A DNA stretch of 64,000 bases from Planctomycetota bacterium (GTDB taxonomy: Bacteria > Planctomycetota > JACOTG01 > JAJDCM01): the NCBI GenBank assembly GCA_029260825.1, contig JAJDCM010000102.1, positions 3,447-67,446 of the forward strand. The letters are read 5' to 3'. The notes below the pieces were generated by a model, which saw only the letters and a list, made by a program, of their open reading frames with translations, ran no database searches and was not told the origin of the DNA. Positions 41,077 to 64,000 of the stretch are shown here, one piece after another. Position numbers and translations under genes: made by a program. Within the stretch, counting starts at the first letter, position 1. Every line of letters starts with the position of its first letter.

Positions 41077-41083
41077 CCAGTAA

Positions 41084-47747: not shown

Positions 47748-47754
47748 GGCAATA

Positions 47755-47760
47755 CTCCTT
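47755..47760 (-). promoter_or_regulatory. Shine-Dalgarno AAGGAG for the beta-helix gene
   Basis: The reverse complement of ctcctt lies 7 nt upstream of the ATG at 47747. Confidence 0.5.
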
Positions 47761-48082
47761 TGAATTCCGAGCTTAGTTGATTCCTGAGGGTCCCCGGTCA
47801 ACATCATGACGAGAATTCCGGCCAAGGAGGTCGGAAAACATGAAAAAAGTGCGAAGAGTCCCGCATTTTGCATCTGGAGAGGAGTCTGGATGAAACAGCA
47901 CGGTGATTTCCGAGTACCGGAGGGCGTTCATTTCCGGATTTATTGAGAAAAGACCTGGGAGCCCCGGCCTTGCCTTCGGGCTCAATTCGGGCCATCCTCT
48001 ACAAGCCAGGTCTGGTCTTTCCTATCGGAGTCGAACGCATGTCTCGGCCCTGGGAGGTTAAGCGACCAGGCGGTTCCAAAAC

Positions 48083-48919
48083 TCAGCTTCCCTCCAGATC
48101 AGGCCAGCCATAAAAGAGAAAGAGCCCGGTGAGCGCATCTACATAGGCAGGATCCGGGCGCTCCTCGCGAGAGCCTGGGTCGAGGTACGACCGAATGTGT
48201 TGACGGTAGCTCCGGGTAATCAAACTCCCGAAATGAGGCTGGAACCGGCGAACATTCTCAACCCGATCGCCGCCACCCCGGAGCCCGAAAAACCCTGCTC
48301 CCAGAGGAGCGAACAGGTTCACGACATCGCAATAGGAATGGTAATTTCGCAGCTTCTGAATGCGACCACTTTGAGTGAGCCTCTCCACATCCTTCGAGTA
48401 AAAAAAGGAAGAAGATTGGATCAGGACCAGCTTGCGAAAATGAGCGATTTCGAACCGATCGGCCACCTCAAGGAGAATCTCGCAGCCATTTGAGAATCCT
48501 ATCGCATCAATCAAGAGAGGCCGGCGGCACTCACTGCGACCATGAACCGACGCGATCTCATCAAGCATCTCGACCAGGAGGGTGACCGGCGATTCCCTCT
48601 CGCAGTTCATCCAGACCCCAAACGGTTCTGACCAGTACGAGACCCGAATGGAGGTCCCTCCATCCTCTTCGACGATTTCCTTTTGTAGTTTCTTGTCCCA
48701 AGGGCTCCCCAGATCACGGAGCATCCCCTCACAGACAATGGAAATCCAGCACGGGTCCATCTCTCCGGAGCGAATCTCTTCAAGAGGAGCGGCAGGAAAA
48801 TGAAGGGAGGCACATCCGCTGCCGAAGAGGACGATTGACAGAAGGGGAGAGAAGAGCGCCAGCGAACGAGAAAAGCGTTTCACGCCAGTCAAGGGAATCC
48901 GAACCATCCAACGGGTCAT
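48083..48919 (-). CDS. Lipoprotein, putative alpha/beta-hydrolase (GxSxG)
   Basis: Has the lipobox LFGSGCAS and a possible nucleophile elbow GFSNG. It overlaps the lspA stop by 4 nt. Confidence 0.45.
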   Translation of the reverse strand: MTRWMVRIPLTGVKRFSRSLALFSPLLSIVLFGSGCASLHFPAAPLEEIRSGEMDPCWISIVCEGMLRDLGSPWDKKLQKEIVEEDGGTSIRVSYWSEPFGVWMNCERESPVTLLVEMLDEIASVHGRSECRRPLLIDAIGFSNGCEILLEVADRFEIAHFRKLVLIQSSSFFYSKDVERLTQSGRIQKLRNYHSYCDVVNLFAPLGAGFFGLRGGGDRVENVRRFQPHFGSLITRSYRQHIRSYLDPGSREERPDPAYVDALTGLFLFYGWPDLEGS

Positions 48920-49446
48920 GCCTTGCTCGGTTGTCCCTTTTTCCCGTCTGACTTGACGGGCTTTGAGAAGAGAGTCATGACCACGAGGATCGTCACTCCG
49001 ACCGAAATGTAGCTATCCGCCAGATTGAACGTTGGCCAGGTGAACTCCCGCTTGTAGTGCCAGTCGATAAAGTCTCGAACATACCCCAGAAACACTCGAT
49101 CGTAGAGGTTGCCAACCGCACCGGAAAGCACCAGCGCAAACGCAACCGTCATCCACCAGCCAGTGCCCGGTCGAAACATCAACGCCGTGATGACCCCGAC
49201 TGCCAGCAGAGACGCAACGATCAAACCGGTTCGCCGCACCGTCTCCGGCAGCTTCTCGAACAGTGAAAACGCCCCGTGAGGATTCGGAACAAAGGTCAGG
49301 TGAAAGTAGTCTTCTACGATCTCGATTTCCTGCCGCCTCCCGCCGTCCTTCCCGGCAAGTCGGCTTTCGGCCCAGGCCTTCGTCCACAGATCGAGAACGA
49401 CACCTATGAGCAAGATCAGCCCGACGACAATCAACCTCGACTTCAT
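48916..49446 (-). CDS. lspA: Lipoprotein signal peptidase (signal peptidase II)
   Basis: Has four TM segments and the conserved blocks NLYDRV and FNLADSYISVG. I chose an internal ATG (MKSRLIVVGLILLIG), which starts 2 nt after the upstream stop. Confidence 0.8.
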   Translation of the reverse strand: MKSRLIVVGLILLIGVVLDLWTKAWAESRLAGKDGGRRQEIEIVEDYFHLTFVPNPHGAFSLFEKLPETVRRTGLIVASLLAVGVITALMFRPGTGWWMTVAFALVLSGAVGNLYDRVFLGYVRDFIDWHYKREFTWPTFNLADSYISVGVTILVVMTLFSKPVKSDGKKGQPSKA

Positions 49447-49447
49447 C

Positions 49448-50695
49448 CTAAGGCTCCAAGAAGCTTCTAACCGTACCCGCAAGCCAACCCAGCTCGCCTG
49501 CCATCCCTTGCACCACATCGGGAGTCATTCGCAACTCCGGAAGGTGGGCAAGAACATGCTCCCAGGTATACGTTTCCACCACAAGAATATCGCTCAATTC
49601 CTGATCAAGGATCAAGCCCAGTGCTCGAGCCGTCTCTCCAATGGTGGTCGTACACCCATCAACACCCCCCAGATGAAGGGGCACGTGAACGTGGGCCCGG
49701 ATCTGAACAAACTCGGATAGTTTTTCCCGGCTCATCGTGGTCATCAACGGAAGGTCGGCGGCAACCCGCCTGACCACACCGTTTCGATCGAGCCCCATCA
49801 CCTGATGGAGATAGCGATCGGCGCCAAGCACCTGCAATAGTTCCAGTCCTTTTGGCTCATCCGCGGGATTGGAAAGAGATACCGCGCTCGAAACATGAAC
49901 CTTTGGAATGGATATCCCATTGGCGGTAAGCTGTCGATATCCGGCGCCGTGGTCCTCAAACATCACCGACTGATGACAGAGGTCAATATTCACTCCCACG
50001 TACCGGCGAAGGGCCGCCGAAGAATCCTCGACCAGATCTCCCCCCTCGCAGCTTCGAATAATGCCTCCGCCCGCCTCGAGGAGAAGATCGAAAAAGCTCA
50101 CCGCCTCATCAACGGTTTCGATCATTCCCCACGGTTCCGGCTCGATCGAGAGAACAATTCTCTTACCCGTCTTCCACTCGATCTCCGCGTAGGCAGCCGC
50201 AACCCGGGCCATGTTCCTGGCGACAGTTTGGAGGGTGTTCTCATCGACCCCAAAACCTCGATAGGTTCCCGGAGATGTGCTCACCGACGCCGTCTCGCCA
50301 GGAACAAGTTCGGCCAGGATCTTGCCCGCCAAACAAGTGGTTAAAACCCGCCTCTCCTCGAGCCAGGTCGGGGTAAACACATCACTCTTGACCGTTTCGC
50401 CATGAAAGTCGGAGATCGGAAAAGCGTTGACCGCCACGACCCGAAGGTCAAGCTCGGAAAGAGTCGCCTTGAGAGATTGGAGCTTTCCTTCATCTTGCGT
50501 GAGTTCAAGGGCCAGCTGTTCGCCGATATGCATCTCTACTGCAAAAGGACCATCCGGGCAAAAGCTGTCCTTCAGACGTCGCACCTGACCGCGGAGGTTC
50601 AGGCACAGATCCGCATGAGATTGGCCACCGAAAACATTCAAGCAATAGGCCAGGGTCGGATGGGCTTTGGTAGTCATCAGAAAACTCACAGGCAA
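49448..50695 (-). CDS. Xylose-isomerase-like TIM-barrel family protein (putative sugar-phosphate isomerase/epimerase)
   Basis: Has an alternating beta/alpha pattern with acidic/His blocks VLSIEPEPWG, NIDLCHQS, and VHVSS. Length is 415 aa. The family call is tentative. Confidence 0.35.
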   Translation of the reverse strand: MPVSFLMTTKAHPTLAYCLNVFGGQSHADLCLNLRGQVRRLKDSFCPDGPFAVEMHIGEQLALELTQDEGKLQSLKATLSELDLRVVAVNAFPISDFHGETVKSDVFTPTWLEERRVLTTCLAGKILAELVPGETASVSTSPGTYRGFGVDENTLQTVARNMARVAAAYAEIEWKTGKRIVLSIEPEPWGMIETVDEAVSFFDLLLEAGGGIIRSCEGGDLVEDSSAALRRYVGVNIDLCHQSVMFEDHGAGYRQLTANGISIPKVHVSSAVSLSNPADEPKGLELLQVLGADRYLHQVMGLDRNGVVRRVAADLPLMTTMSREKLSEFVQIRAHVHVPLHLGGVDGCTTTIGETARALGLILDQELSDILVVETYTWEHVLAHLPELRMTPDVVQGMAGELGWLAGTVRSFLEP

Positions 50696-50707
50696 GATCG
50701 GAAAAAA

Positions 50708-51433
50708 CTAACCCTTCATGAGCTCCACGACTTGCTTGGGAACCTCGACCTTCGTCGTGTTCAGATCCCGCACTTTCATCATGATAGTCTTCTTGCGCTC
50801 GATGGCTTTGTCGCCCCGTTGGATCCTGGTGAGGGTATGAACTTCAAGTCGCTCCACTCCACCCTTCGCATTGACCACAACGCCGATTCGCCCTGAATAC
50901 TCGGGCTGCTGAGAGCCTGGCTTGCCACTCCTCCCGCCGGAAAGCTCTTTCGCTCCGTCTGCGGTGAGATTGGCGTAGTGAATCGTCATCCCATCTTTTT
51001 CGGTCTTCTCTACCTTTTCGATCTTCTTCTTGAGATCTTGCAGGGCATGGTGGGGAACCGGAAGCGCAGCGATGGACATGGCCGCCTGCAGCGCGGGACT
51101 CGACTTCCCTCCCCGGGCTCGAGCTCCGGCCTGGGCTTTCTTGAGATCAACCAGGGTCCACACGCCTTCCTTATTCTTGTAGACGGTTTGGCTTCTGTTC
51201 CGGTAGATGGTGTGATTGCCCTTGGTGAAAAGGAAAGGCTTTCCTCGCTCCACCTTGCAGGAAACCGCCGTCTTCTTTTGAATCGACGCGGGGCCTCCCG
51301 ACTGCTCGACGGAAATCTCTACTCGGTAGCTCTTTGCCGCCTCCACCTTTTCGCTGATCTTGAGGAGATCCTGGATGGAGCTACCTTCTACCCCGAGAAA
51401 TACCAAAAGACACGCCGCTGCTAAACTGATCAT
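50708..51433 (-). CDS. Secreted protein of unknown function (possibly LolA-like beta-sheet fold)
   Basis: Has an N-terminal signal peptide MISLAAACLLVFLGVEG. No catalytic motifs found. Confidence 0.35.
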   Translation of the reverse strand: MISLAAACLLVFLGVEGSSIQDLLKISEKVEAAKSYRVEISVEQSGGPASIQKKTAVSCKVERGKPFLFTKGNHTIYRNRSQTVYKNKEGVWTLVDLKKAQAGARARGGKSSPALQAAMSIAALPVPHHALQDLKKKIEKVEKTEKDGMTIHYANLTADGAKELSGGRSGKPGSQQPEYSGRIGVVVNAKGGVERLEVHTLTRIQRGDKAIERKKTIMMKVRDLNTTKVEVPKQVVELMKG

Positions 51434-51608
51434 GATTCTCTCCGACCGGCAACTGCCACAAAAGACACGGAGGACTCCATGTCCTCTCGGAAAGAACCAT
51501 CAGACTAGAGAAAGCCGGAGATTGCAACTATTCATCCGGCCAGTGCCTCAGGACCGGGCTTTTCGCCGACACGGGCTGGGCCCGAAGGGCTGGCATCGGC
51601 GAAATCAT

Positions 51609-54600
51609 TTAACCCATCTGCTGGAGACGGGTCTTCAGATCCCGGACCACGTTGGCAAGGGGCATCATCCCTTCCGGAGTCGGAACCTGATTCGCGTCCG
51701 GAAGAGCCTCTGCGACCTGGTTCAGCAGGGTTTCGACCTCGGTTCGGGCCTCGGGAGAGCCTTGTTCTTCGCGGGCCAGAAGCTGGTACCGCTTGAAGCG
51801 CTCCCAGATCTTCTCGATCGCCTCTTTTTCTGCTCCTGTAGCAATCTCCCTGCCGTGGGTCAGAATCGGTGCCAACCGGTCGAGGAGGAGGGTGATCTGG
51901 GGAGACTTCTCCTTGCGATTCACCGTGAATCTAGGGAAGGAGTAGATCCTCGTCCCCAGACAAACCCCGAAGCTCTCAACTCGACTTTGATCGATGGAAT
52001 AGTCATCGAGATAGTAGTCGTAATCGATCTCGATGTTCCTCTCCGGAACACCGTGGTCCCGGTAGGTTTCATAGGTCGACCCCGCCGCGGGATAGACCTC
52101 AACACTCAAATTATCCGCCATGAAACGCAGAAGCTCGGAAGCGAGAACCCGGTCGGCAAGGCCGTCTTCGACGAGTCGATGTATGCGACAGAATCGAGGC
52201 ACAACAAAATCAGCCAGATCGTCCGGGCGAGCATCCGGTTGTTTGAACGATTCCAGAATCGAAGCGATTTCGTTTTCAACTTCGGAGAACGTCGACTTCT
52301 CGGTCTCGTCAAAATACCGGCGAAAATGAGCATGCTCTCGACAACGTTGCATGTAGAGAGGCTCGGGCCCGAGAGACACACGAACCGAGAATGGAGATTC
52401 CATGTCGGAGCCCTGGTAGCCAAAACGACTCACCTGAATCGTTCCTCGCTCTTCCTCCCCGAACTCGGCCACAATTTCATCGCCCTCACGACGATCTTCC
52501 ATCAGGCTGGACGGATCATCATGAGCTCCCGGATAAACTCGAAGATCAAAGCGGGTCGAGAGGTCCGAGAGAAGGGAACGCCCTTCTGCCCAGACTTCAG
52601 AATAAGCAGGAGAAGAGGGAGATCCGACTCCCTGCAAGACCTCGATCACGGATAGAGCCGAGCGCACTCGCTCCAGGGAAATCTCAGGAGGACAGGGCTT
52701 GCCTTCGATCGTGGAGACAAGAGCCTGATCATCGAGATTGCGAATGGTCTCCATCGCTGAAATGGTCACCGCTTCAACCTCAGGACACAGCTCTCCGATC
52801 CGGGAAAGACGGGAGAGAAGACCATCGGGCATCCCACCATGAACGACGAGATTTCCCCGAGCAATCACCTCTCCGTTGACCGTCAATGCTCGATTCTCGA
52901 TGGAGACGATGCTCCCTCGTGAAAGTCCCGCCTCCGTCTCCGTCGATTGATACTGGAACGCCTGGGATCCGGATTCAAAGAGATCGCAATACTTCTCGTT
53001 CCGGAGCGGACGATTGAGATGGATCGGCTCGAGGCAGATCTTCTTCTCGGCGAGAAAGCGAACCAACCTGGTGACGCCGGCCCGAAGAACCTCCGCCCCT
53101 TCCGGATCGATCTCACCGAGCCCAAATACCCGGGCATCAAAATCGTCAACAGACCTTGCGATCTTGCTCGCCATTGATTCGTAAACGGAATCCGTTCGGA
53201 AGAGAGACGGATCTGTATCCTGTTCGAGAGTCCGCAAGAATGCGGCGGCAGATGGTACATGTTCATCGCCAGCGGTTGCAACGAGCCACTGCAAATGCCG
53301 CAGGAGCTCGGGAAGTGGACCGAGAGAAACCTGAACCTTCCCCTTGCGGACGAGGTTTCTTTCAGCATCCGTTGAAGACGACCGATGAATCGATCTCTTC
53401 TCGACGTGAACCACCCGTCCTTCGGGAACCTGGTCATGGAAAACCGGCTCCACATCCATCTCGCGATTGTCCAGATCGACCCGGTCTCCCGGAGAGGGGC
53501 TCACCTGAATCCCAACCCTCGAGAGAAACGAGGGAAATTCGTTCTCGAGGATGCGGTCAAGCTCACTGGCAATCTTGGAGCAATCCGGGAAAGCGGCACG
53601 AATCAGTTCGGCCTCCGCGAACATCTCCACCGCAGGTTTCGCAAGTTCCTTTCGCCAGACCGTCTCGTCGGCAAACAAGGCAAAGTCCGGGCAGCCAAAT
53701 CGGGGCTCTACCCGGGAGGAATAAATGCGTTTCAGATTCGCCCGGTGTTCATCGACAAGGGGCTTCCGATCCAGGACATCTTCACCGGCCGGAACCAGGT
53801 CGGGCTGTTTTTCCCACCCTTCGGTAACCGACCAAACTCGATCGAAGATCCGGGACAGTTCGGGTTCAGATCCGAGGCTCACCACGACCCTCGCCCTTCT
53901 CGCCACCCGGTCCCCCGTGGTAAATCCATGAGCGTCCACCGCAACGACTCCCCCCGCACCGACCGAATCATCTCTTTGGTACGTGACCTCGTACTTTTTC
54001 GTATCTTTCGAGAGATCCTCGGCGGTGAGAAGACTTCCTTCCTGAGGGAACTTGTGAAAACCTTGGCGTGCAAGGAAGGAGGAAACATCGTCCCGGGAGA
54101 TATCGCCCAGGGACCCGTTCTTCAGATCTTCATAGAGGCAGATGACCTCGGCCACAAGAGCCGGCTGATTGTCCTGATCCACCTCAAAATGCCTCCCTGC
54201 AGTACAGGAGATCAGCCTGATCCGGGAGAGGCATTCTTCTCCGGCGGTAGCTTCCGCAAGGTTCACGTCTCGAACCTTCAGGAGGAACGGATCCTCAACA
54301 ACATCTCCTCGGCTCACCTGGATCTTGGCCGGTACGCTGAAGAAGGGAGACTGGAGCCCGAGACGGAGCGTCTCGATGACGATTCCCGGGTCAGCTGCGT
54401 GGCGAACCCTTTCAACTTCATAGGGATATCGACCCAGCTCCGGCTCATCATCCGATGCGAAGTGGTCGAGGAACTCACCCGGAGGGAATTCCACCACATC
54501 CGCACCATAGACACTCTTCAAGAAGGTTCGCACCGAAGTTTGAGTCTCTGTCGGAAGATGAAAAAAGACACCCGACACAAGATCGAAAATCAGCTCCAAG

Positions 54601-56009
54601 CCCTCCCGTCCTTCGAGTTCCCGGTTCGATCGAGAGAACGAATTTTCTCTCGCGTTGGAAAGAGCGGGTCCAAACGTTTCCTCCCGGATCTCCTCCTCAC
54701 GAATCAAGCCCTCGAGTTGATCCAGAACCTGATGAAACCGGCTCACCTCTCCTCGACTCACCACAACTCGAGGTCGAACGATCAGGCGTCCATCCACGGC
54801 AACTCCCGCAGACTTCAGCTCGAGAATTGCGCCCCGGCCTTTTCCCGCAACCGGTTTCTCACTGTATTCGTTCTCAAATTCATCCTTCCACCATTCAAAC
54901 GACGGGAGGTTGTCTTCGTTGATGACGACCGCTCCCAGAAGACGGAGCAACACCGTACACTTCGCCTCAAGACTCTTTCCGGCCTTCAACGACCTCGACA
55001 AGGTAAGAAGGGATGCGAGACCTTCTATGGCTCCATCCCGATCCTTGCTCTTGACTGCCTCTCGAACACTGGAAATGCACCCGGCAATGTTTGTTGAAGA
55101 CTCATCAGTACTCATCTCTTCCGTCGCCGCCTTGATCTCGTCAACCTTCTCAAGGAGCGCACCGGTTGAGAACCATTCATTAGCTTCTCCTCCCAACCAG
55201 CGCTTGAAATCTCTGATTTCATTCAGGAGAGAGCCGGCCTTGGTACCTCCAAGCCCCGAAAGCACCGAGCCAAGAAGGACAACCGCCGAACTCGCCGCTG
55301 CACCATTTCTGTCCACGACGGAGAGGTTGGTCGAGAAGTCCTTCACCGACTGCAACACCGACGAGAAGAGTTCCTTTTCCTTCTTCCCAAGATCCTTCCC
55401 GTCAGCAACGAGAGACTCGGTCATCGAGATGAGACGACTGAGAAACGGGGTCACCGCAACTTCGATATGCGGTTTGAGATAGGTTCCCGCCGAACTCTTC
55501 AGACCGGGAAGCCGTCTTGTAACCGTACCCTCCTTGGCATCGGCGATCGGCCGATACAGGACGGTGAAATCCTGGCCATGCACCGTGGATCCGGACCACA
55601 GAGCCATGGAATCCCCAAAACGAGGATGGGGAAGCTTCACTCCCTTCTGTTGAAAAGAGCTCACTCCATGATCTCCAAGGACCTTTTCCAGCTCCTTGAC
55701 GAGGGAGGCTGCGGTCGGAGAGCCAATCGTATCCGCCATCGTCGCGACTCGGTAGCCCTGCGCAAGAGCCCCAAGGCGATGAGGATGAGATCGGGAGGAA
55801 GAAGCCTTCTTCCGGAGGCGGCCCATTTCTTCCACGAGCTCCTGAAGATACGCGGAGTTCTTCTTTTCGCTCAGGCTCTCGACCATGCCCTCGCATTGCT
55901 CGACTACGGACTCTAGGAGATCTTTGACCATTGTCGTCATGGGAGTCTTTCTCTCGATTTCAAGAAACCAATCTTCGATTCTTCTTCTGAACGAAATCTC
56001 ATGATTCAT
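51609..56009 (-). CDS. Giant cytoplasmic protein with five or more repeats resembling the GrpE C-terminal beta-hairpin motif
   Basis: Has no signal peptide or TM. Recurrent blocks include HGFTTGDRVARRARVVVSLGSEPEL, VDGRLIVRPRVVVSRGEV, ALTVNGEVIARGNLVVHGG, RKGKVQVSLGPLPEL, and FSVRVSLGPEPL. For comparison, the E. coli GrpE C-terminus is GYTLNGRTIRAAMVTVAKA. Length is 1466 aa. Confidence 0.55.
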   Translation of the reverse strand: MNHEISFRRRIEDWFLEIERKTPMTTMVKDLLESVVEQCEGMVESLSEKKNSAYLQELVEEMGRLRKKASSSRSHPHRLGALAQGYRVATMADTIGSPTAASLVKELEKVLGDHGVSSFQQKGVKLPHPRFGDSMALWSGSTVHGQDFTVLYRPIADAKEGTVTRRLPGLKSSAGTYLKPHIEVAVTPFLSRLISMTESLVADGKDLGKKEKELFSSVLQSVKDFSTNLSVVDRNGAAASSAVVLLGSVLSGLGGTKAGSLLNEIRDFKRWLGGEANEWFSTGALLEKVDEIKAATEEMSTDESSTNIAGCISSVREAVKSKDRDGAIEGLASLLTLSRSLKAGKSLEAKCTVLLRLLGAVVINEDNLPSFEWWKDEFENEYSEKPVAGKGRGAILELKSAGVAVDGRLIVRPRVVVSRGEVSRFHQVLDQLEGLIREEEIREETFGPALSNARENSFSRSNRELEGREGLELIFDLVSGVFFHLPTETQTSVRTFLKSVYGADVVEFPPGEFLDHFASDDEPELGRYPYEVERVRHAADPGIVIETLRLGLQSPFFSVPAKIQVSRGDVVEDPFLLKVRDVNLAEATAGEECLSRIRLISCTAGRHFEVDQDNQPALVAEVICLYEDLKNGSLGDISRDDVSSFLARQGFHKFPQEGSLLTAEDLSKDTKKYEVTYQRDDSVGAGGVVAVDAHGFTTGDRVARRARVVVSLGSEPELSRIFDRVWSVTEGWEKQPDLVPAGEDVLDRKPLVDEHRANLKRIYSSRVEPRFGCPDFALFADETVWRKELAKPAVEMFAEAELIRAAFPDCSKIASELDRILENEFPSFLSRVGIQVSPSPGDRVDLDNREMDVEPVFHDQVPEGRVVHVEKRSIHRSSSTDAERNLVRKGKVQVSLGPLPELLRHLQWLVATAGDEHVPSAAAFLRTLEQDTDPSLFRTDSVYESMASKIARSVDDFDARVFGLGEIDPEGAEVLRAGVTRLVRFLAEKKICLEPIHLNRPLRNEKYCDLFESGSQAFQYQSTETEAGLSRGSIVSIENRALTVNGEVIARGNLVVHGGMPDGLLSRLSRIGELCPEVEAVTISAMETIRNLDDQALVSTIEGKPCPPEISLERVRSALSVIEVLQGVGSPSSPAYSEVWAEGRSLLSDLSTRFDLRVYPGAHDDPSSLMEDRREGDEIVAEFGEEERGTIQVSRFGYQGSDMESPFSVRVSLGPEPLYMQRCREHAHFRRYFDETEKSTFSEVENEIASILESFKQPDARPDDLADFVVPRFCRIHRLVEDGLADRVLASELLRFMADNLSVEVYPAAGSTYETYRDHGVPERNIEIDYDYYLDDYSIDQSRVESFGVCLGTRIYSFPRFTVNRKEKSPQITLLLDRLAPILTHGREIATGAEKEAIEKIWERFKRYQLLAREEQGSPEARTEVETLLNQVAEALPDANQVPTPEGMMPLANVVRDLKTRLQQMG

Positions 56010-56012
56010 GCA

Positions 56013-57476
56013 CTACGGAGGTGACGAGCCATCTTCTTTCTCGTCCTTCGGTGCCCGATACAGTCCCCACTGCACCACTTCTCCGGTTGCACCGAGGAAG
56101 TCGGTGTTCGGCCCGGGCTCGAGCCCCAACCCGAACATCTCTGCAAGAGCCCGAGGAAGATCTCCGCGAAACGATTCGATCTCATAAACCCAGACCCGGC
56201 GACTGTCCACATCCCAGTCGAGAGTCAGGGCAATCGCACCGTTTGCCTCAACAACACTCGTTTCTCCATCGGGCTTCAAAGGAACATGGATCGGAACCCG
56301 CTTCTCCACCTTTCCCGTACCCGCGGTTACAACCTCGCAGGACAGCGCTGCCTTTCGCGTCGGAATCAGCACTCCGGCACGACGGAAGGTCTTGAGAGCT
56401 CGAGAGGAAAGACGGTATTCGATGAAACGATCGGGCCTGGGAACGGGAACAAAGTGATCGACACTGAAAAGGACATCGCCCCCCGGACCCGCCGATCGGA
56501 AGATCCCCCCTGCTGCTTTGATGGTAGCGTTCGGCTGGACCGTGAAGCCCTGGAACTCTCCCCAGGGAGAACCGTGGACGAGCTCAATCACAACACTGGA
56601 CAGCGCCAGAGGGATTCGATGTTTTCTTCCAAGAGACTTCTGCAGGCTCGAAAGATAGGGGCTTCTTTGGAGTTTCTTGGGGTCTCCTTCGACCGGGAGA
56701 CTCTTGATCGAAAAGTCATTCCCGGCAAACCCGTTGGCCGGAATGTATGCACCCAAAAGAGCACTCTTCAGCCTTCTCTGAAACTCGGTTCGCCCAAGGC
56801 CCTTTCCCTCCGGAGAAAGATCGAGAACACCCAGAAGGAGTCTCTCTACTTCCGTGGCTTCGCCGGCGACGGAGGTGGGAGAGGTCGTCTCGATCCTCCT
56901 TCTCTCCGGGGATCTGTTCTTTCGGGGCAAAGAGGGCTCGAAAGATGCAATCCGGGCATGGAGGCCCGCCAGTAGTTCCTCTCGAGTGATCTCGGCAAGA
57001 AGAGCCGACTTCACCATGTAGACCGTCTCCAACTGATCGCCGGGAACAGGCATCTTCAGAACACACGGAAAAACCTTGTTCTCAAGAAGCGACTCGATGT
57101 TCGCCGCGATGAATCCGCGGGAATCCGTCACGCCCCTGGTGGCGGTGATCTTTCCTTCCACTTCCGGTCCAAGGTCGGAAACAATCAAGGAGATGAGCTT
57201 CTGGCGAGCAACGCCAAGGGACGGAGCCACCGCACTCATGCTGCCTGAGAGATCCGCGGCAACGTAACCCGAAGACGAAACGGCCACGTCATCCGGTCCG
57301 AGCAAGGCCATGATCGTCTCCCAGCTCGCCGCGTCCGGCTCGTGAATCGGTTCGATGACATGAGGAGATGGAGAAGATGCACAGCCCACGAGAAACCCGA
57401 GGGCCAGAACGGCTCCAAGAAGAGCGTATCTTCGCAATCGAATCACTTTCGTACTTCCTCCGTTTGTACTCTTCAC
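56013..57476 (-). CDS. Lipoprotein of unknown function
   Basis: Has the lipobox LALGFLVGCAS. It overlaps the upstream giant gene by 4 nt and ends 3 nt before the next start. Confidence 0.5.
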   Translation of the reverse strand: MKSTNGGSTKVIRLRRYALLGAVLALGFLVGCASSPSPHVIEPIHEPDAASWETIMALLGPDDVAVSSSGYVAADLSGSMSAVAPSLGVARQKLISLIVSDLGPEVEGKITATRGVTDSRGFIAANIESLLENKVFPCVLKMPVPGDQLETVYMVKSALLAEITREELLAGLHARIASFEPSLPRKNRSPERRRIETTSPTSVAGEATEVERLLLGVLDLSPEGKGLGRTEFQRRLKSALLGAYIPANGFAGNDFSIKSLPVEGDPKKLQRSPYLSSLQKSLGRKHRIPLALSSVVIELVHGSPWGEFQGFTVQPNATIKAAGGIFRSAGPGGDVLFSVDHFVPVPRPDRFIEYRLSSRALKTFRRAGVLIPTRKAALSCEVVTAGTGKVEKRVPIHVPLKPDGETSVVEANGAIALTLDWDVDSRRVWVYEIESFRGDLPRALAEMFGLGLEPGPNTDFLGATGEVVQWGLYRAPKDEKEDGSSPP

Positions 57477-60400
57477 TTCAACCGTCCCTTCAAAGCTACG
57501 GCAACTTGATCATCCAAGGAGCTCACGGCCGAATCGAAAACCCGGCGAAGAAACGCTTCCTCGTCCTCCTGGAATTCGGCGGTGCTACCGTTGATCGATT
57601 GTTCGATCAAGAGGGCGCAAAGATAGGGTTGAACACCAGCAAGTCGCTCGGCGCCATCAAGAATGTCTCTTGAAAGATTCAGGTCTTTCCCGCCTCGCGC
57701 CGTCCACCAGATGCGCCCACGTAATGCATAAAACTGATGGAAGGCCCAAAGCAACCTGGGATCCGAATCACTGATCTCTGGCAACTCATCGATAACACTC
57801 TTGATCTTTTCGGGAATCCTGCGCCATCGATGGACTGCTCCGTAAAGCTCAAGATCCCAGGAGTAATACCGTGCGGAAGGAAACTGCCCCGAAAGAGACT
57901 GAAGAGACCTGGACGCGTTGTCGAACCGCTCCAGTCTCCGATTGGTCACAACATCCAGATACGCCTCATAGCCAAGGAGGTAGTCGGTGATCCAGTCATC
58001 CGTTGTTCGATCGGGAGTTTCCCGGCGAAAATCAGGAACCGAAAACTCGATCGGAGGAACAAACGAAGCCAAAGGAAGCGTTTCCGCCGAAACGAGAGCT
58101 CCTCCGGCAGCTCGAAACACTTCGTTTTCAAAACTGGAGATCAGACCTTTTGAAACGGTTCCTTGCTGTCCCGACCAGGCCCAGGAGACGAACCCCTGGA
58201 TGAACCGCATCCGGTCACGATCAAGACTGTCAGCCATTCCTGTTCGAAGCGCGCTCCACCAGGCACCCTGATGCTGGGAAGAAAGAGTCGTTGCCGCCGT
58301 AACCTGAGCTTGATCGGGCCGCCCTTTCGCAAGGTGCTCGTCCGACTCATGGATCAAGTTCATCAAGGCATCGACGCCCGCGCCATCAAAGAGCGACACA
58401 TAGACCCCATCCGGCTCCATCCACTCTCCACTCACCGACGAAGAATAGGCAAGCTGATAGGTACGACCGATCAGGGATCGATCATTCGGAATTGACAGCT
58501 CCCAGTAAGTCCCCTGATCATCCCGGCCGGGGCTCACGGCGACTGCAAGAGTCTCCATTGGAACAACAAACCAATCCCCCTCACTGCTCTCCTCGGGAAC
58601 AGGAAGCAACCTGGCCCGAAAAACGTCCTCGAGACCTCGGCCCCGGATCTTGGTCACGATCGGCTCTTTCTCATGAGTGAGACCGACCCATCCTCGAAGA
58701 GGAATGCCTCCCTGAGATTCCTGGAAACGCTCGAACCGAGGTACCGGACAGACCGCGACCGAAATCTGCGCTCTCTTCCAATCCTTCCCCGCGTCCCTGA
58801 ATTCGAGCATGTACGATGCCCGATCTCCAAGATCAGAAACCGCGGCAAACTCCAGGGCAATTTGATCGCCCTTCAAGGAACTCCGGGCCGCCCAGGGTTC
58901 ACTCGACGAAGCAGGATCCTCACTCACAAACCGAAATTCAGTTCCTGACACGGAATCGATTCGGGTGGAGAGAGGAGTCAGGAAGAGGGTCTCATCCCGG
59001 TTGAAAAAGGAAATCGTCCGTCGATCATTCTCATCCTGGGGAAGAAGAGAAACGCTTTGAAATCCGACCGGCTCATGAACGCGTAACTTCCCGAGAGAGA
59101 CGTTCGAGGAAGGCTCGGGATGAAAGATCAATTCGTAGTCCTGCTCCGTGTCCAGGTCTTCCGGGCTATCCACTGTGAGAAGAATTTCCATTTCGTTGCA
59201 GCTAGCCACGGTGAGACCGCTCATCGGAGGCTCAAGGTCAAACGACCCCTTGCTCGTGATACCGAGTCCTTTCCCCGAGAGCTGGATTTCGAGGCTTCCG
59301 CCCATTCCTTCCGCAGCCCGAACATAGCGCTCACCATCGAAGATGACCGCATCGCCCGACATGGAAGCCACTCTCGACTTGAAGGGTTGCAACTCGACAG
59401 TCAGCCCGGTCGCCTCCTTGATCTTGCCGCCGTGGGTAAGAACACAGAGCTCGGCTTCCCGTCCTTTCCACTTCTCCTCGATCTTGTAGAGGCGGGAAAA
59501 GCTCAACCTCTCCCCATCCCGATCCACTCGGTCAGGAACCAACGAAACGAGCACTTCGCCGTCGGCTACCAGGCCGTAGTTTCCTCGGGTGCGCAGGTTC
59601 TTGCCGTAAACCTCGATCCCTTTTGCGGTGATCACCTGACCATCGCCTTCAACGAAATGGAGGACGGAGGGAGCGACTTCCTGATACTCGGACCGGAACA
59701 GATACGGCACACCGGCAACTCCGCCAAGAGCAAAGAACATCAGAACGACGACGGCAAGGATCGAGTTGGTTGTTCGGGAAAAGCGAGCAACCTTGACGCT
59801 TGCTCCCGTTTCTACTCCATCAATGAGAACCTCATAGCGATCCGCGGGAGCGTTCCTCGGCAAGACCAACTGAACCCCGTCCTCCGTGGACTCCAGCTCT
59901 TCAAAGTCAACCTCGTTCCGTCCATCTTCCGCCCTCAAACTGTAATGAGAGTGATCGGAAAAAGCCCGACCAACGAGCTGAAGCGGAGGGCATTTTCCCC
60001 GGGTATACAGGCGACGAGGCAAAGAGGAATCCACCCGGGGAAGAACTTGAACGGTCAGTCCGGTGGGAGCATCCGCACACATGAGGGAATAGGCTCCGGG
60101 TCGAACTCCCGACTCACACACGAGGTCCACCCATTCCGTCGATCCGGGGACGAGAGCGCGAGTCAAAGAAACCGCCCGGCCATCCGCCGAGATCGCCGGC
60201 TGTCCCTGTTCATCAACGAGTCCATAGATTGCCGTCGATGGAAGATTCTGACCGACGACGTGCAGGGAGAATCCGGATTCACTGCAAACCTGCTTGGGCT
60301 CGATCCCGCCGAAAGCGGGTTTGCGGGCCGCGACTTCAAAACACAGGGCAGTGCGAGTCCTCTCGTGAACCAGGCGATAGACTCCCGGCCCAAGAACAGG

Positions 60401-62026
60401 AATCACCCGACTCAGGCGATTCGGCTCATCCTTGCTTTCCTCGGTTCGACGGAGCCGAACGTAGCGGGAGCCATCGGGAAGAGCAATGAGAGCTCCATCC
60501 TTTTCGAGATGAACAACTCCCGACTCATGGAGGTTCTCTCCGGTCAGGGTCACGACCGCGTCTTTGCTTCCGTCTTCAATCACCAGGGGCTGGATCGTCT
60601 TGAAGACACAGTGAGGCACCGTCACAGTCGTCTCTTGTTCCACCGACAGTGTCAGGCCAGTGTCCCCCTCCCCGGTCGAAAATATGCGATAGCAGCCCGG
60701 ATGAAGAGGAGGAACGACCCGCTCCAGCGATGCCGGTGTATCGTTCCCTGAGTCGATCGGAAAGAGGACCGCAAGCCCCTCTTTGATGGCGGCCGCAGCC
60801 GAATCGCACCCTGCCCCTTCCGGGCTGGAGGGAATCTCCGCGAACGGAAAGGCCTCCTTGAATTCCAGGTTTTTGGCCTCACTCCTTCGAAGATAGAACA
60901 CACTACAGGGTTCAAGGTCGATCCCCTGAATGCTTACCAGGGAGGGTTCGGAGCCATTCGTGATCGTTCCCGGAACGAGGGAACGATACTCGGCAACTCC
61001 TCTTACCGGGATCTTGATCCCGGAGACAACCTCTCCAAGTCGATTGCGGACGAAGTCGGATCGCAAGTGACCGCGCTTTGGAGAATCAATCAAATCGGCC
61101 CACACACCGGCGAGCCCTTCTAGCATCTTCAGGCCACTCGTAGCCGACTCGAGACGCAAGGACTGGAAAACGAGGCGACATCCGGTCAGAAAATCCTCGA
61201 GGTTCATCCGGAGATTTGCGTGGCGCGCGTCCCGATCCCCATTTCCCTCGGAACTCCGGGTATTCCCCTCGACTCGAACTTTCAATTCATTCCACAGACT
61301 GTCGAACTCAGGCAGAGAATCGAGGGCCCACAGAAGAAGCCGTTTCGCCGCGCCTACCTCCGCGTCTTCATCGTATTCGTCAAAGTTAAGATAAGTCGGG
61401 AACGGTCGACGACACGACGCAACCAGTGGATAAATGGAGCGATCCTCATCGGATAGGCTCGAACTATTGAACCGAATTCCGGGAGCGAGGAACCACCAGC
61501 AAGCATTCTTCGACTCCTTCTTCTCGGTGAGAACACAGGAGGGTCGAAGGTTGTAGTGAAGGAGTCCGTGCTCATGAAGATAAACGAGGGTTGAGAAGAG
61601 AGAGTTTCCAAGGGATAAAAGGCTCTCGATTCCGTACCCGCCCCGGTCATCCTCGACCAGCGATTCCAGAGATATTCCGCGAGTGAACGTATCCTGGTCC
61701 TGGCAATACACCACTGCCACCGAGTCGCTATCCTCGTTCGAGACGACTCCCCCGATCGGGACAAGTCCAACATGAGCCGGGACTTTTCCCTGAGAAAGCC
61801 ACAGAAGTCGGCCTTCTTCATCTCCCTTCCAGGTCACCTGGTCAACGGCCGCCTTGGGGATGACCTGCACGACCCGCTCCGGTCGATCCCGTGCCGTTTC
61901 ATCTCTTGCGAGAAAAAACGTGCCGAACCCGCTCGAAGACAGGTATGAGACAGTTGTCGAAAGCTGAATGGTCCCCAGATCCGGGGAATCCGCCTCGAGA
62001 GGCTCCAGTCCGTCCTGATTGGTCAT
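57473..62026 (-). CDS. Giant single-pass membrane protein with N-terminal cytoplasmic pseudokinase (Hanks-type fold lacking catalytic Asp and DFG)
   Basis: Has a Gly loop SSGFGTFFLA and VVQVIPK (VAIK-like). The catalytic loop reads HYNLRPSCV where HRDLKPxN is expected, and DFG is absent. There is a TM ILAVVVLMFFALGGVAGVPYLF at about aa 745 and a roughly 770-aa extracytoplasmic C-terminal region. The ATG at 62026 is preceded by AGGAAAGGA. Length is 1517 aa. Confidence 0.6.
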   Translation of the reverse strand: MTNQDGLEPLEADSPDLGTIQLSTTVSYLSSSGFGTFFLARDETARDRPERVVQVIPKAAVDQVTWKGDEEGRLLWLSQGKVPAHVGLVPIGGVVSNEDSDSVAVVYCQDQDTFTRGISLESLVEDDRGGYGIESLLSLGNSLFSTLVYLHEHGLLHYNLRPSCVLTEKKESKNACWWFLAPGIRFNSSSLSDEDRSIYPLVASCRRPFPTYLNFDEYDEDAEVGAAKRLLLWALDSLPEFDSLWNELKVRVEGNTRSSEGNGDRDARHANLRMNLEDFLTGCRLVFQSLRLESATSGLKMLEGLAGVWADLIDSPKRGHLRSDFVRNRLGEVVSGIKIPVRGVAEYRSLVPGTITNGSEPSLVSIQGIDLEPCSVFYLRRSEAKNLEFKEAFPFAEIPSSPEGAGCDSAAAAIKEGLAVLFPIDSGNDTPASLERVVPPLHPGCYRIFSTGEGDTGLTLSVEQETTVTVPHCVFKTIQPLVIEDGSKDAVVTLTGENLHESGVVHLEKDGALIALPDGSRYVRLRRTEESKDEPNRLSRVIPVLGPGVYRLVHERTRTALCFEVAARKPAFGGIEPKQVCSESGFSLHVVGQNLPSTAIYGLVDEQGQPAISADGRAVSLTRALVPGSTEWVDLVCESGVRPGAYSLMCADAPTGLTVQVLPRVDSSLPRRLYTRGKCPPLQLVGRAFSDHSHYSLRAEDGRNEVDFEELESTEDGVQLVLPRNAPADRYEVLIDGVETGASVKVARFSRTTNSILAVVVLMFFALGGVAGVPYLFRSEYQEVAPSVLHFVEGDGQVITAKGIEVYGKNLRTRGNYGLVADGEVLVSLVPDRVDRDGERLSFSRLYKIEEKWKGREAELCVLTHGGKIKEATGLTVELQPFKSRVASMSGDAVIFDGERYVRAAEGMGGSLEIQLSGKGLGITSKGSFDLEPPMSGLTVASCNEMEILLTVDSPEDLDTEQDYELIFHPEPSSNVSLGKLRVHEPVGFQSVSLLPQDENDRRTISFFNRDETLFLTPLSTRIDSVSGTEFRFVSEDPASSSEPWAARSSLKGDQIALEFAAVSDLGDRASYMLEFRDAGKDWKRAQISVAVCPVPRFERFQESQGGIPLRGWVGLTHEKEPIVTKIRGRGLEDVFRARLLPVPEESSEGDWFVVPMETLAVAVSPGRDDQGTYWELSIPNDRSLIGRTYQLAYSSSVSGEWMEPDGVYVSLFDGAGVDALMNLIHESDEHLAKGRPDQAQVTAATTLSSQHQGAWWSALRTGMADSLDRDRMRFIQGFVSWAWSGQQGTVSKGLISSFENEVFRAAGGALVSAETLPLASFVPPIEFSVPDFRRETPDRTTDDWITDYLLGYEAYLDVVTNRRLERFDNASRSLQSLSGQFPSARYYSWDLELYGAVHRWRRIPEKIKSVIDELPEISDSDPRLLWAFHQFYALRGRIWWTARGGKDLNLSRDILDGAERLAGVQPYLCALLIEQSINGSTAEFQEDEEAFLRRVFDSAVSSLDDQVAVALKGRLK

Positions 62027-62180
62027 AACATCCTTTCCTCGCGTCCCTCGATCGAGATCCGACCCAGTCGGATCAGGTTTCTTTTCGGAAGGATCGGCCT
62101 TCGGCTAGAAGGCATTTCGGATGAATGAGCGAGGATTTCTCCAGCTTCGTGCGTATGAACCGGTTGAATGACCTCACCCC

Positions 62181-62246
62181 GATATCAGCCAGGTGGGCAG
62201 ATCGATATCCAAAGCTGGATTTGGTAAGGTGTCAGTTCTCGATATC
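62181..62246. promoter_or_regulatory. Three spaced CGATATC(A) boxes in the divergent lepB / pseudokinase-operon intergenic region
   Basis: The palindromic core GATATC occurs at 62181, 62204 and 62241, in the contexts ccGATATCAg, tcGATATCCa and tcGATATCAg. Confidence 0.25.
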
Positions 62247-62285
62247 AGGTAGATTCCCCTAACCTCGGACGGCAGCAACTTTTCC

Positions 62286-62942: not shown

Positions 62943-62945
62943 GGA

Positions 62946-63851: not shown

Positions 63852-64000
63852 GCGAACCCGGATTCGACAAAGCGGATTGCAAGGTAGCCCTGAGCTTCGC
63901 CGACTTCCCCAATGCAAAGACATCGTTCCCGTTCCCCCTCGCCGTCGATACGCGATCCTTCAACATGCCGCTTCTTGACCTGATGAAGGACTATGGGCAC
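63848..64000 (+). CDS. 5' fragment of a downstream gene, truncated by the window end
   Basis: Its ATG overlaps the PTPS stop in an ATGA arrangement. No identifiable motif is present in the 51 codons available. Confidence 0.3.
   Translation, partial: MSEPGFDKADCKVALSFADFPNAKTSFPFPLAVDTRSFNMPLLDLMKDYGH

What the first reader, a model, noticed from the sequence alone, without database searches (positions are those of the whole stretch)
48083..62285. 14-kb co-directional envelope operon: membrane pseudokinase giant, lipoprotein, GrpE-repeat cytoplasmic giant, secreted protein, TIM-barrel protein, LspA and hydrolase lipoprotein, with LepB divergent
Seven minus-strand genes run with 2-12 nt gaps or 4-nt overlaps from 62026 to 48083. 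The only larger gap is a 175-nt spacer after the 1466-aa giant. The operon pairs two giant proteins with both signal-peptidase genes of the cell. One giant is cytoplasmic. The other spans the membrane and has a dead kinase domain facing the cytoplasm. lspA lies inside the operon and lepB lies divergent, sharing the promoter region. Two lipoproteins are also present. This looks like a dedicated trans-envelope complex whose assembly is tied to signal-peptide processing. I do not recognise it as any described system.
Basis: inference. Interest (0 to 1): 0.75.

Follow-up and report, generated by a model that had tools for sequence, protein, structure and literature searches.

The report
Giant seven-fold GrpE-repeat envelope module
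Three tightly coupled genes (a membrane-spanning dead-kinase protein, a lipoprotein and a 1466-residue cytoplasmic protein built from seven copies of the Hsp70 co-chaperone GrpE) form a very rare conserved module of unknown function; the two signal-peptidase genes beside it look like ordinary neighbours.

Summary

The family is tiny: two relatives among 1.84 billion representative proteins. G1-G2-G3 recur with the same order and coupling in two metagenomic lineages. In the nearer one, LepB (divergent) and EboE-LspA (downstream) are also retained. In the distant one they are absent, and a dynamin-like GTPase and a divergent Hsp70-like ATPase sit between G2 and G3.

I read the region as a G1-G2-G3 core beside housekeeping genes, not a seven-gene signal-peptidase machine. 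The likeliest mechanism is inferred, not shown: a multivalent GrpE-type platform that engages Hsp70-type ATPases at a trans-envelope scaffold. No described system contains it. SrfA-type pseudokinase platforms and Hsp70/GrpE-containing GTPase conflict systems are the nearest analogues.

The parts
57473..62026 (-). G1: 1517-aa bitopic membrane protein, N-terminus in the cytoplasm
   Evidence: ORF. Single TM helix. Full-length homologues in L001 (32% identity) and L002. No Pfam or NCBIfam family.
61292..61948 (-). G1 residues ~27-245: degenerate protein-kinase-like domain (pseudokinase)
   Evidence: hhalign against kinase alignment A8: probability 76.5%, E 2.2e-5 and 60%, E 8e-5. PDB and PADLOC weak hits are nearly all kinases. 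GFGTFFLARD glycine loop. Lys->Gln, HRD->HYN (LGT in L001), DFG->APG (GAG in L001).
59786..60988 (-). G1 residues 347-747: four Ig-like repeats of ~93 aa (PGxYxL...TGLxVxV), cytoplasmic side
   Evidence: Repeat HMM built from the window repeats (so their E-values are partly circular): iE 1e-28, 1e-29 and 5e-24 for repeats 2-4; repeat 1 is split by an insert. The same repeats are found in L001 and L002.
59708..59764 (-). G1 residues 755-773: transmembrane helix
   Evidence: Kyte-Doolittle 2.52 over 19 residues. KVARFSR lies before it and an acidic stretch after it.
57476..59707 (-). G1 residues 774-1517: extracytoplasmic part, beta-rich then a helical C-terminal domain
   Evidence: Conserved in L001 and in L002 gene a (E 3e-14). 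No family hit.
56013..57476 (-). G2: 487-aa lipoprotein (lipobox LVGC), start overlaps the G1 stop by 4 nt
   Evidence: Homologous lipoproteins occupy the same position in L001 (E 3e-9) and L002 (E 2e-13). No Pfam or PDB hit.
51609..56009 (-). G3: 1466-aa cytoplasmic giant
   Evidence: No TM helix or signal. Only two relatives (35% and 30% identity) among 1.84e9 representatives.
51912..55160 (-). G3 residues 284-1366: seven tandem GrpE-like units (284-420, 426-568, 572-713, 715-897, 900-1059, 1061-1214, 1216-1366)
51434..51608 (-). 175-nt spacer after G3 with a weak hairpin plus T-run (51486-51470); probable boundary between transcription units
   Evidence: A spacer of about 135-170 nt follows G3 in L001/L007. 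No sequence conservation. No Rfam hit.
50708..51433 (-). G4: 241-aa secreted, Lys-rich protein, lineage-specific
   Evidence: Signal-like N-terminus. No family hit. Absent from L001 and L002.
49448..50695 (-). G5: EboE (xylose-isomerase-like TIM barrel)
   Evidence: NCBIfam TIM_EboE 2.2e-85, 286.7 bits, above the 250 cut-off. 50% identical homologue in the same position in L001.
48916..49446 (-). LspA, signal peptidase II (likely start ATG 49446; the ORF is open to 49518)
   Evidence: Peptidase_A8 5.8e-36; TIGR00077 91 bits, above the 74 cut-off. Start context.
48083..48919 (-). G7: 278-aa lipoprotein (GSGC) with a GFSNG motif, lineage-specific
   Evidence: No Pfam, NCBIfam or PDB hit. Absent from L001 and L002.
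62027..62285 (.). 259-nt divergent intergenic region between G1 and lepB
   Evidence: No sigma-70-like site was found there.
62286..62942 (+). LepB, signal peptidase I (neighbour)
   Evidence: Peptidase_S26 2.4e-36; TIGR02227 126.8 bits. SGSM Ser and KRVVG Lys are present.
62946..63851 (+). Double-domain PTPS/QueD-like protein (neighbour), followed by a 299-aa TIM-barrel gene that runs past the window end
   Evidence: PTPS 5.8e-53. The next gene is seen in L006. Both are syntenic in L001.

Best explanation
The interval holds two things side by side.

(1) A rare, fast-evolving three-gene module, G1-G2-G3, translated as a coupled unit.
- G1 is an inner-membrane scaffold. On the cytoplasmic side it has a catalytically dead kinase-like domain and four Ig-like domains. 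It crosses the membrane once and has a large periplasmic part.
- G2 is a lipoprotein and presumably its periplasmic partner.
- G3 is a cytoplasmic protein of seven tandem GrpE-like modules.
- GrpE's known job is to grip the nucleotide-binding domain of Hsp70 (DnaK). The most distant relative of the module also carries a dedicated Hsp70-like ATPase and a dynamin-like GTPase.
- I therefore infer that G3 is a multivalent docking and nucleotide-exchange platform. It would bring several Hsp70-type ATPases to the cytoplasmic face of the G1/G2 trans-envelope scaffold. Here those ATPases would be the cell's DnaK or an unlinked paralogue.

(2) Housekeeping neighbours: LepB and a QueD-like gene upstream, EboE-LspA (plus lineage-specific G4 and G7) downstream. 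Their adjacency is most simply inherited gene order, not part of the machine.

Shown: domain identities, repeat structure, topology, and conservation of the three-gene core.
Inferred: physical G1-G2-G3 contact, Hsp70 as the client of G3, and any cellular role.
For: GrpE identity of the G3 units:
- Profile hits 4ani, 1dkg and 3a6m at E 5e-4 to 4e-3, covering the helical and beta parts.
- AF2 model pLDDT 90.6, pTM 0.82.
- The positions equivalent to E. coli GrpE R183 and V192 carry a consensus Arg and a near-invariant Val. The numbering and the reported role of these residues in DnaK binding are from my own knowledge.

Seven true repeats.

Module conservation:
- L001 has G1 (32%), G2 (E 3e-9) and G3 (33%) with 4-nt overlaps.
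- L002 has G1, G2 (E 2e-13) and G3.

Hsp70 link:
- L002 gene d carries FAIDLGTTNS and AFDFGGGSLDLS.
- All six of its PDB hits are DnaK nucleotide-binding domains.
- Pfam HSP70 0.008.
- Its only plasmid hit is annotated as an Hsp70 family protein, E 8e-5.
- L002 gene c matches Dynamin_N at 6.6e-12.

Separability from the peptidases:
- L002 has none in the region held.
- A spacer follows G3 in both the window and L001.
- G4 and G7 are not conserved.
Against: - No Hsp70-like gene, J-domain or P-loop occurs in the window's module or anywhere in the 64 kb. The Hsp70 link therefore rests on one relative.
- GrpE similarity is at fold and superfamily level. The Pfam GrpE score is 16.8 bits, below the 25.8 cut-off.
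- The relative orientation of adjacent units is unresolved (pTM 0.54). GrpE normally acts as a homodimer.
- Only three independent lineages exist, so co-occurrence statistics are weak.
- The block LepB<>G1-G2-G3-EboE-LspA survived rearrangements that moved a PilC-like gene (80% identity) elsewhere. That leaves some room for a functional link to the peptidases.
Confidence: 0.55

Rival explanations
1. All seven genes plus divergent lepB form one dedicated trans-envelope system, and its assembly depends on locally encoded signal peptidases I and II.
For: - Tight spacing from G4 to G7 and from G1 to G3.
- The module encodes LspA substrates (G2, G7) and a LepB substrate (G4).
- LepB<>G1-G2-G3-EboE-LspA is retained in L001 although the flanks are rearranged.
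Against: - L002 keeps G1-G2-G3 with no LepB, LspA or EboE in the region held.
- G4 and G7 are missing from both relatives.
- A spacer of about 135-175 nt, with a hairpin in the window, separates G3 from the downstream genes in both genomes.
- The L001 block also contains QueD-like and TIM-barrel genes, so it looks like a housekeeping neighbourhood.
- Both peptidases look like ordinary full-length enzymes.
Confidence: 0.12
2. G1-G2-G3 is a reduced biological-conflict (immunity) system. It would be of the type described by Kaur et al. 2020 (PMC7159879): membrane-proximal GTPase-centred systems that combine Hsp70 and GrpE, rapidly evolving FNIII/Ig-repeat sensor proteins and TM-linked kinases. 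The Ig repeats would sense an invader and the Hsp70/GrpE part would set a threshold.
For: - The giants have diverged to 30-33% identity while neighbours are 50-80% identical.
- Very patchy distribution.
- Ig-like repeats, a kinase-like domain and a TM helix in one protein.
- GTPase and Hsp70-like genes in L002.
- The paper reports such themes in planctomycetes and verrucomicrobia.
Against: - No GTPase and no recognisable effector in the window.
- No Pfam hit to any GAP1-type or effector-associated domain at E <= 0.1.
- PADLOC gives only weak kinase-type hits.
- No copies on plasmids or viral contigs.
- Same chromosomal position in two lineages and no mobile-element genes nearby.
Confidence: 0.2
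3. It is an SrfABC-like platform. G1 plays the part of SrfA, a bitopic protein with a dead kinase-like N-domain that docks SrfB and SrfC. The module would then be a vesicle-exported toxin or host-interaction complex.
For: - SrfA is described as a degenerate kinase-like N-domain, a TM helix and a periplasmic C-domain that acts as a platform for SrfB and SrfC (bioRxiv 10.64898/2026.09.18.752743).
- G1 has the same order of parts.
- L002 gene d gives a weak SrfB hit, E 0.01.
Against: - No SrfA, SrfB or SrfC family hit for any window protein.
- G1 is about three times the length of the SrfA proteins described in that preprint and adds Ig repeats.
- G3 has no counterpart in SrfABC.
- The L002 GTPase matches Dynamin_N, with no hit to an SrfC family.
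Confidence: 0.08
4. The giants are unrelated neighbours, and the GrpE and kinase resemblances are chance.
For: Individual family scores are below curated cut-offs.
Against: - Three-lineage synteny with translational coupling.
- Leave-one-out repeat detection.
- Sequence-profile and fold searches both put GrpE first.
Confidence: 0.03

Closest known systems
GrpE (PF01025), nucleotide-exchange factor of DnaK/Hsp70
   Same: - Each G3 unit has GrpE's helical segment followed by the small beta-domain.
- It ends in the GrpE-like 'G.(R)v.R.a.V.Vs' strand.
- One relative is encoded next to an Hsp70-like ATPase.
   Different: - By my knowledge, GrpE is a protein of about 200 residues that works as a homodimer through long N-terminal helices. 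G3 strings seven units on one 1466-residue chain.
- Each modelled unit has four helices of 8-17 residues rather than one long helix.
- G3 scores below the Pfam cut-off.
- It is coupled to membrane proteins.
- Exchange activity is untested.
SrfA of the SrfABC system (bioRxiv 10.64898/2026.09.18.752743)
   Same: A bitopic inner-membrane protein with a cytoplasmic, catalytically degraded kinase-like N-domain, one TM helix and a periplasmic C-terminal domain. It is proposed to act as a docking platform.
   Different: - No detectable sequence relationship.
- G1 has four extra cytoplasmic Ig-like domains.
- Its periplasmic part is about 740 residues and gave no family hit, whereas SrfA has a lipocalin-like C-terminal domain.
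- Its partners are a lipoprotein and a GrpE-repeat giant, not SrfB and SrfC.
GAP1-N2-type DO-GTPase conflict systems with Hsp70 + GrpE, FNIII-repeat proteins and TM-linked kinases (Kaur et al. 2020, PMC7159879)
   Same: A membrane-proximal combination of Hsp70, a GrpE-type factor, a GTPase, beta-sandwich repeat proteins and kinase domains. Reported in planctomycetes and verrucomicrobia. L002 has the GTPase and the Hsp70-like genes.
   Different: - The window has no GTPase, no Hsp70 and no GAP1.
- The kinase domain is inactive.
- The GrpE part is a seven-fold repeat rather than a normal GrpE.
- No effector domains were found.
Mitochondrial import motor (PAM: mtHsp70 with its GrpE-type exchange factor Mge1/GrpEL1); comparison from my own knowledge
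   Same: An Hsp70 and a GrpE-type exchange factor working at a membrane-embedded complex.
   Different: Analogy only. No translocon, J-protein or Tim44-like component was identified here.

Membership tests
GrpE family (PF01025) | Sequence match to the GrpE profile above the curated threshold | tested here: not met
   Whole G3 versus Pfam GrpE: 16.8 bits against a 25.8 cut-off, E 0.0058. NCBIfam GrpE equivalogs: 12-14 bits against cut-offs of about 200. A profile of the 21 units does reach GrpE chains at E 5e-4 to 4e-3. The relationship is therefore at superfamily level only.
GrpE family (PF01025) | GrpE fold: helical segment followed by a C-terminal small beta-domain | tested here: met
GrpE family (PF01025) | Homodimer through long paired N-terminal helices | tested here: inconclusive
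   Units have four helices of 8-17 residues, not one long helix. The two-unit model has pLDDT 83 but pTM 0.54, so packing is undetermined.
GrpE family (PF01025) | Binds the Hsp70 nucleotide-binding domain and accelerates ADP release | not testable with these tools
   Only indirect support: an Hsp70-like gene lies next to the G3 homologue in L002. None occurs in the window.
Eukaryotic-type protein kinase superfamily | Kinase-like fold / sequence similarity across the N- and C-lobes | tested here: inconclusive
   hhalign probability 76.5%, E 2.2e-5, 135 columns from the Gly loop to the catalytic loop. No Pfam Pkinase hit at E <= 0.1. No structure model could be made with homologues.
Eukaryotic-type protein kinase superfamily | Catalytic residues: beta3 Lys, HRD Asp, DFG Asp | tested here: not met
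   Aligned positions are Gln, HYN and APG in the window, and LGT and GAG in L001. If the domain is kinase-fold, it is a pseudokinase.
SrfABC system | SrfA, SrfB and SrfC family proteins encoded together | tested here: not met
   No Srf family hit for any window protein in Pfam or NCBIfam at E <= 0.1. The only signal is a sub-threshold SrfB hit (E 0.01, 14.3 bits against 27.1) on L002 gene d.
SrfABC system | SrfA architecture: dead kinase-like N-domain, TM helix, periplasmic C-domain | tested here: inconclusive
   G1 shows the same order of parts. It also has four extra Ig-like domains and an unrelated, much larger periplasmic part.
DO-GTPase / GAP1-N2 conflict systems (Kaur et al. 2020) | A DO-GTPase gene in the operon | tested here: not met
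   No Walker A motif in G1, G2, G3 or G7. No GTPase family hit. L002 has a GTPase, but it matches Dynamin_N.
DO-GTPase / GAP1-N2 conflict systems (Kaur et al. 2020) | A GAP1 protein (GAP1-N/M/C domains) | tested here: inconclusive
   No Pfam hit at E <= 0.1 on any module protein. I could not confirm that the library holds GAP1 models.
ebo gene cluster | EboE equivalog | tested here: met
   NF035939 TIM_EboE: 286.7 bits against a 250 cut-off.
ebo gene cluster | Other ebo genes adjacent to eboE | tested here: not met
   The neighbours are G4, LspA and G7, with no Ebo family hits. L001 has the same EboE-LspA pair.
Signal peptidases I (S26) and II (A8) | Family profile above threshold, with catalytic motifs | tested here: met
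   LepB TIGR02227: 126.8 bits against 47. LspA TIGR00077: 91.2 bits against 73.95. SGSM/KRVVG and NLYD/NLAD motifs are visible in the sequences.

The most novel reading that the evidence does not exclude
G1-G2-G3 is the core of a previously unrecognised chaperone-powered envelope machine. A heptavalent GrpE-type scaffold would array several Hsp70-like ATPases, with a dynamin-like GTPase in some lineages, under a trans-envelope pseudokinase/lipoprotein scaffold. This would let the cell pull on, remodel or disassemble membrane-associated material. It would be a bacterial counterpart, in logic, of the mitochondrial Hsp70 import motor or of dynamin/Hsc70 action in endocytosis.
Probability: 0.2. 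Interest if true: 0.85.

Novelty: categorically new. Interest (0 to 1): 0.62.

Why it matters
As far as I know, and as far as five full-text literature searches (one aimed at GrpE repeats) could show, GrpE is known only as a small dimeric exchange factor.

A single chain with seven GrpE-like modules would be a new way of using the Hsp70 cycle. The chain is genetically welded to a membrane-spanning pseudokinase and a lipoprotein. In one lineage it also sits beside its own Hsp70-like ATPase and a dynamin-like GTPase. The implied use is multivalent and membrane-anchored.

The idea is directly testable: binding and exchange assays on one 145-residue unit that already models at high confidence.

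The result also removes a tempting but weak idea. The two signal peptidases beside the module are probably just neighbours.

Tried and rejected
- Word-indexed homologue searches with G3, with G1 and with the G3 alignment returned only the query.
- Both genome-contig scans failed. The G3 alignment found nothing. The LepB alignment found only unrelated Flavobacteriia. The refuting test, 'lepB/lspA in the same context without giants', could therefore not be run.
- The exact look-up of G3 found no contig on record. The QueD-like protein gave only a 3.8-kb Logan contig.
- L007 proved to be the same population as L001 (99.6% nucleotide identity), so it is not an independent lineage.
The afdb50 library was unavailable.
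- A register-shifted four-unit alignment collapsed onto identical overlaps in a local MAFFT trial. I replaced it with non-overlapping two-unit rows.
- Self-BLAST does not see the G3 repeats. They needed motif anchoring and profiles.
- PADLOC gave only weak kinase-type hits.
- Rfam found nothing in 47500-64000.
- The spacers after G3 are not conserved between the window and L001.
- G3 and G1 gave no tblastn hits in plasmids, and the G3 alignment found nothing in viral contigs.
- G2 and G7 gave no PDB hits.
- The Klebsiella plasmid Hsp70 neighbourhood showed nothing related.
- I rejected a J-domain or P-loop in the module.
- I rejected a window-encoded homologue of the L002 dynamin-like or Hsp70-like genes.


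Full report
**Observation**

The ORF map shows the seven minus-strand genes at the stated coordinates.
- G1 57473-62026, 1517 aa
- G2 56013-57476, 487 aa
- G3 51609-56009, 1466 aa
- G4 50708-51433, 241 aa
- G5 49448-50695
- LspA 48916-49518
- G7 48083-48919

Junctions:
- G1/G2 overlap by 4 nt, and G2/G3 are 3 nt apart.
- G3/G4 are 175 nt apart.
- G4/G5 are 12 nt apart.
- G5/LspA are 1 nt apart if LspA starts at the ATG at 49446.
- LspA/G7 overlap by 4 nt.

LspA and the divergent LepB (62286-62942) are clear family members (Pfam 5.8e-36 and 2.4e-36; NCBIfam equivalogs above cut-off). G5 is more specific than 'TIM barrel': it is an EboE equivalog (286.7 bits against 250). Hydropathy gives G1 one TM helix (755-773) and G3 none. 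G2 (LVGC) and G7 (GSGC) have lipoprotein signals, and G4 has an N-terminal signal. The description holds. Two points cannot be checked here: that these are the cell's only signal peptidases, and that G7 is a hydrolase (it has only a GFSNG motif).

**G3 is a seven-fold GrpE repeat**

BLAST against itself sees nothing. A recurring V.VS.G strand at residues 415, 563, 708, 892, 1054, 1209 and 1361 defines units of about 150 residues that align well.

A profile of 21 units, from G3 and its two relatives, finds seven units in each protein (iE 1e-25 to 4e-38). Each window unit is still detected when it and its orthologues are left out of the profile (E 2e-16 to 2.5e-3 for a single comparison).

Searched against all PDB sequences, the unit profile's top three hits are GrpE from Geobacillus, E. 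coli and Thermus (E 5.4e-4, 3.8e-3, 3.9e-3). The matches span nearly the whole profile and cover both GrpE's helical region and its beta-domain.

The unit consensus keeps an Arg and a near-invariant Val at the positions of E. coli GrpE R183 and V192. The numbering and the reported role of those residues in DnaK binding are from my own knowledge.

A two-unit model folds both units (pLDDT 83) but leaves their mutual orientation open (pTM 0.54). The whole protein stays below Pfam's GrpE cut-off (16.8 against 25.8 bits). I therefore call the units GrpE-like, not GrpE.

**G1**

PDB, NCBIfam and PADLOC searches give only weak hits for the N-terminus, but almost all of them are protein kinases. Profile-profile comparison with three real kinases (two from the window, one from L001) gives 76.5% probability and E 2.2e-5 over 135 columns, from the glycine loop (SSGFGTFFLARD) to the catalytic loop (60% with the two-sequence profile).

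At the aligned catalytic positions G1 has Gln for the beta3 Lys, HYN for HRD and APG for DFG. The L001 orthologue has LGT and GAG. If the fold is kinase-like, it is dead. No homologue-based structure model was possible, so this remains probable, not proven.

Four Ig-like repeats of about 93 residues follow (347-462, 475-568, 572-664, 666-747). They end just before the TM helix. Residues 774-1517 lie outside and have no family match.

**Relatives and synteny**

The family is extremely small. An exhaustive HMMER scan of 1.84 billion representatives with G3 residues 267-1466 finds only two other proteins (35% and 30% identity). Word-indexed searches find only the query.

Locus L001 (metagenome contig of 101 kb, 68% G+C) has this layout:
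- TIM-barrel gene, QueD-like, LepB, all divergent from the module
- G1 homologue (32% identity)
- lipoprotein homologous to the C-terminal half of G2 (E 3e-9)
- G3 homologue (33%)
- EboE (50%)
- LspA (63%)

The three core genes overlap by 4 nt, as in the window. Housekeeping proteins are far more similar than the giants: LepB 65-66%, and a PilC-like protein 80%. The PilC-like gene lies 7 kb from LspA in L001 but 37 kb away in the window. The flanks have therefore been rearranged while this block survived. G4 and G7 are missing from L001. L007 is the same population as L001.

Locus L002 (32-kb contig, 71% G+C) has this layout:
- G1 homologue, interrupted by a frameshift in the contig
- G2 homologue (E 2e-13)
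- a 790-aa dynamin-like GTPase (Dynamin_N 6.6e-12)
- a 948-aa protein
- G3 homologue

The 948-aa protein is a divergent Hsp70-type ATPase. It carries FAIDLGTTNS and AFDFGGGSLDLS. All six of its PDB hits are DnaK nucleotide-binding domains. Pfam HSP70 scores 0.008. Its only plasmid match is annotated as an Hsp70 family protein.

Downstream genes in L002 are unrelated (Topo VI, a methyltransferase). No LepB, LspA or EboE lies in the 24.8 kb held. The window and L001 encode no homologue of the L002 GTPase or Hsp70-like genes. The window's module proteins have no P-loop or HPD motif.

**Interpretation**

The conserved, translationally coupled unit is G1-G2-G3. The signal peptidases travel with it only in the closer relative. 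There the conserved block also contains other housekeeping genes. A spacer of about 135-175 nt follows G3 in both genomes, with a weak hairpin plus T-run in the window. I therefore treat LepB, EboE-LspA, G4 and G7 as neighbours. I keep a small probability for a real link, because the block outlived local rearrangement.

For mechanism, two facts bear on it. The only established activity of the GrpE fold is to bind the Hsp70 nucleotide-binding domain. And a dedicated Hsp70-like ATPase is inserted next to the G3 homologue in L002. Together they make a multivalent Hsp70-docking and exchange platform at a G1/G2 trans-envelope scaffold the best-supported reading (confidence about 0.55). This step is inference.

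**Comparison with known systems**

- **GrpE.** The fold is met, the curated sequence threshold is not, and dimer formation and activity are untested.
- **SrfA of SrfABC.** A 2026 preprint describes it as a dead kinase-like N-domain, a TM helix and a periplasmic domain that serves as a platform for SrfB and SrfC. G1 has the same order of parts but no detectable sequence relationship, and no SrfB or SrfC is present.
- **GAP1-N2 DO-GTPase conflict systems** (Kaur et al. 2020). These combine Hsp70, GrpE, FNIII-repeat proteins and TM-linked kinases near the membrane, including in planctomycetes. The window lacks the defining GTPase and any detectable GAP1 or effector. The fast divergence of the giants keeps a conflict role alive as the main rival (about 0.2).

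No literature hit describes tandem GrpE repeats. No copies occur on plasmids or viral contigs.

**Verdict**

The module is real, rare and not assignable to any described system. Its most unusual element is the seven-fold GrpE-like giant. Function remains inferred. The source lineage is unnamed. The domain repertoire of the window and L001 (DUF1569, PF07638 ECF sigma, choice-of-anchor Q, many Ser/Thr kinases, giant proteins) suggests Planctomycetota or a relative, but this was not established.

Noticed in passing
L002:4722-9982: In the most distant relative of the module, a dynamin-like GTPase (790 aa) and a divergent Hsp70-like ATPase (948 aa) are inserted between the G2 and G3 homologues. The Hsp70-like protein has DnaK phosphate-1 and phosphate-2 motifs, a 135-aa N-terminal extension and no recognisable substrate-binding domain. 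It also gives a sub-threshold SrfB hit.
   Followed up: partly
L002:1-740: The G1 homologue in L002 changes reading frame inside its fourth Ig-like repeat (frame 3 up to about 690, frame 1 from 733). This is either a sequencing error in a 71% G+C contig or a pseudogene.
   Followed up: partly
window 49448-50695 and 62946-64000: A stand-alone EboE equivalog sits next to lspA without any other ebo gene. On the other side of the module lie a double-domain PTPS/QueD-like gene and a second xylose-isomerase-like TIM-barrel gene. All three are syntenic in L001. This could be a small unexplored metabolic set split by the giant module.
   Followed up: partly
window 44061-47873 (-): A 1270-aa secreted protein with three 'choice-of-anchor Q' domains (7e-46) and PMP-like repeats lies 209 nt downstream of G7 on the same strand. 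No homologue was found in the held parts of L001 or L002.
   Followed up: no
window 38430-44034 (+): A Ser/Thr kinase with PD40 repeats (863 aa) is followed by a TPR-CHAT protein (750 aa; CHAT 9e-63). Such a pairing could be a signalling or conflict module.
   Followed up: no
window 14150-19240 (+): A 1696-aa protein fuses an active-looking Ser/Thr kinase domain to a C-terminal FGE-sulfatase (SUMF1-like) domain. SUMF1-type enzymes are reported to flank srfABC operons in the preprint read.
   Followed up: no
window 3946-11513 (+): A type IV pilus / type II secretion gene set: two N-methyl pseudopilin-like proteins of more than 500 aa, two T2SSE ATPases and a PilC-like T2SSF protein. The T2SSF protein is 80% identical to one in L001, but at a different distance and orientation from the module.
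   Followed up: partly
window 11540-13486 (-) and 23388-28097 (-): A CHASE2-adenylate/guanylate cyclase, and a 1569-aa FG-GAP repeat giant.
   Followed up: no
L001:16264-21969: Downstream of LspA in L001 lie a DinB/DUF1569 protein, an ECF sigma factor (PF07638) and a 1403-aa Ser/Thr kinase with WD40 propellers. The first two families hint at a Planctomycetota-like source.
   Followed up: no
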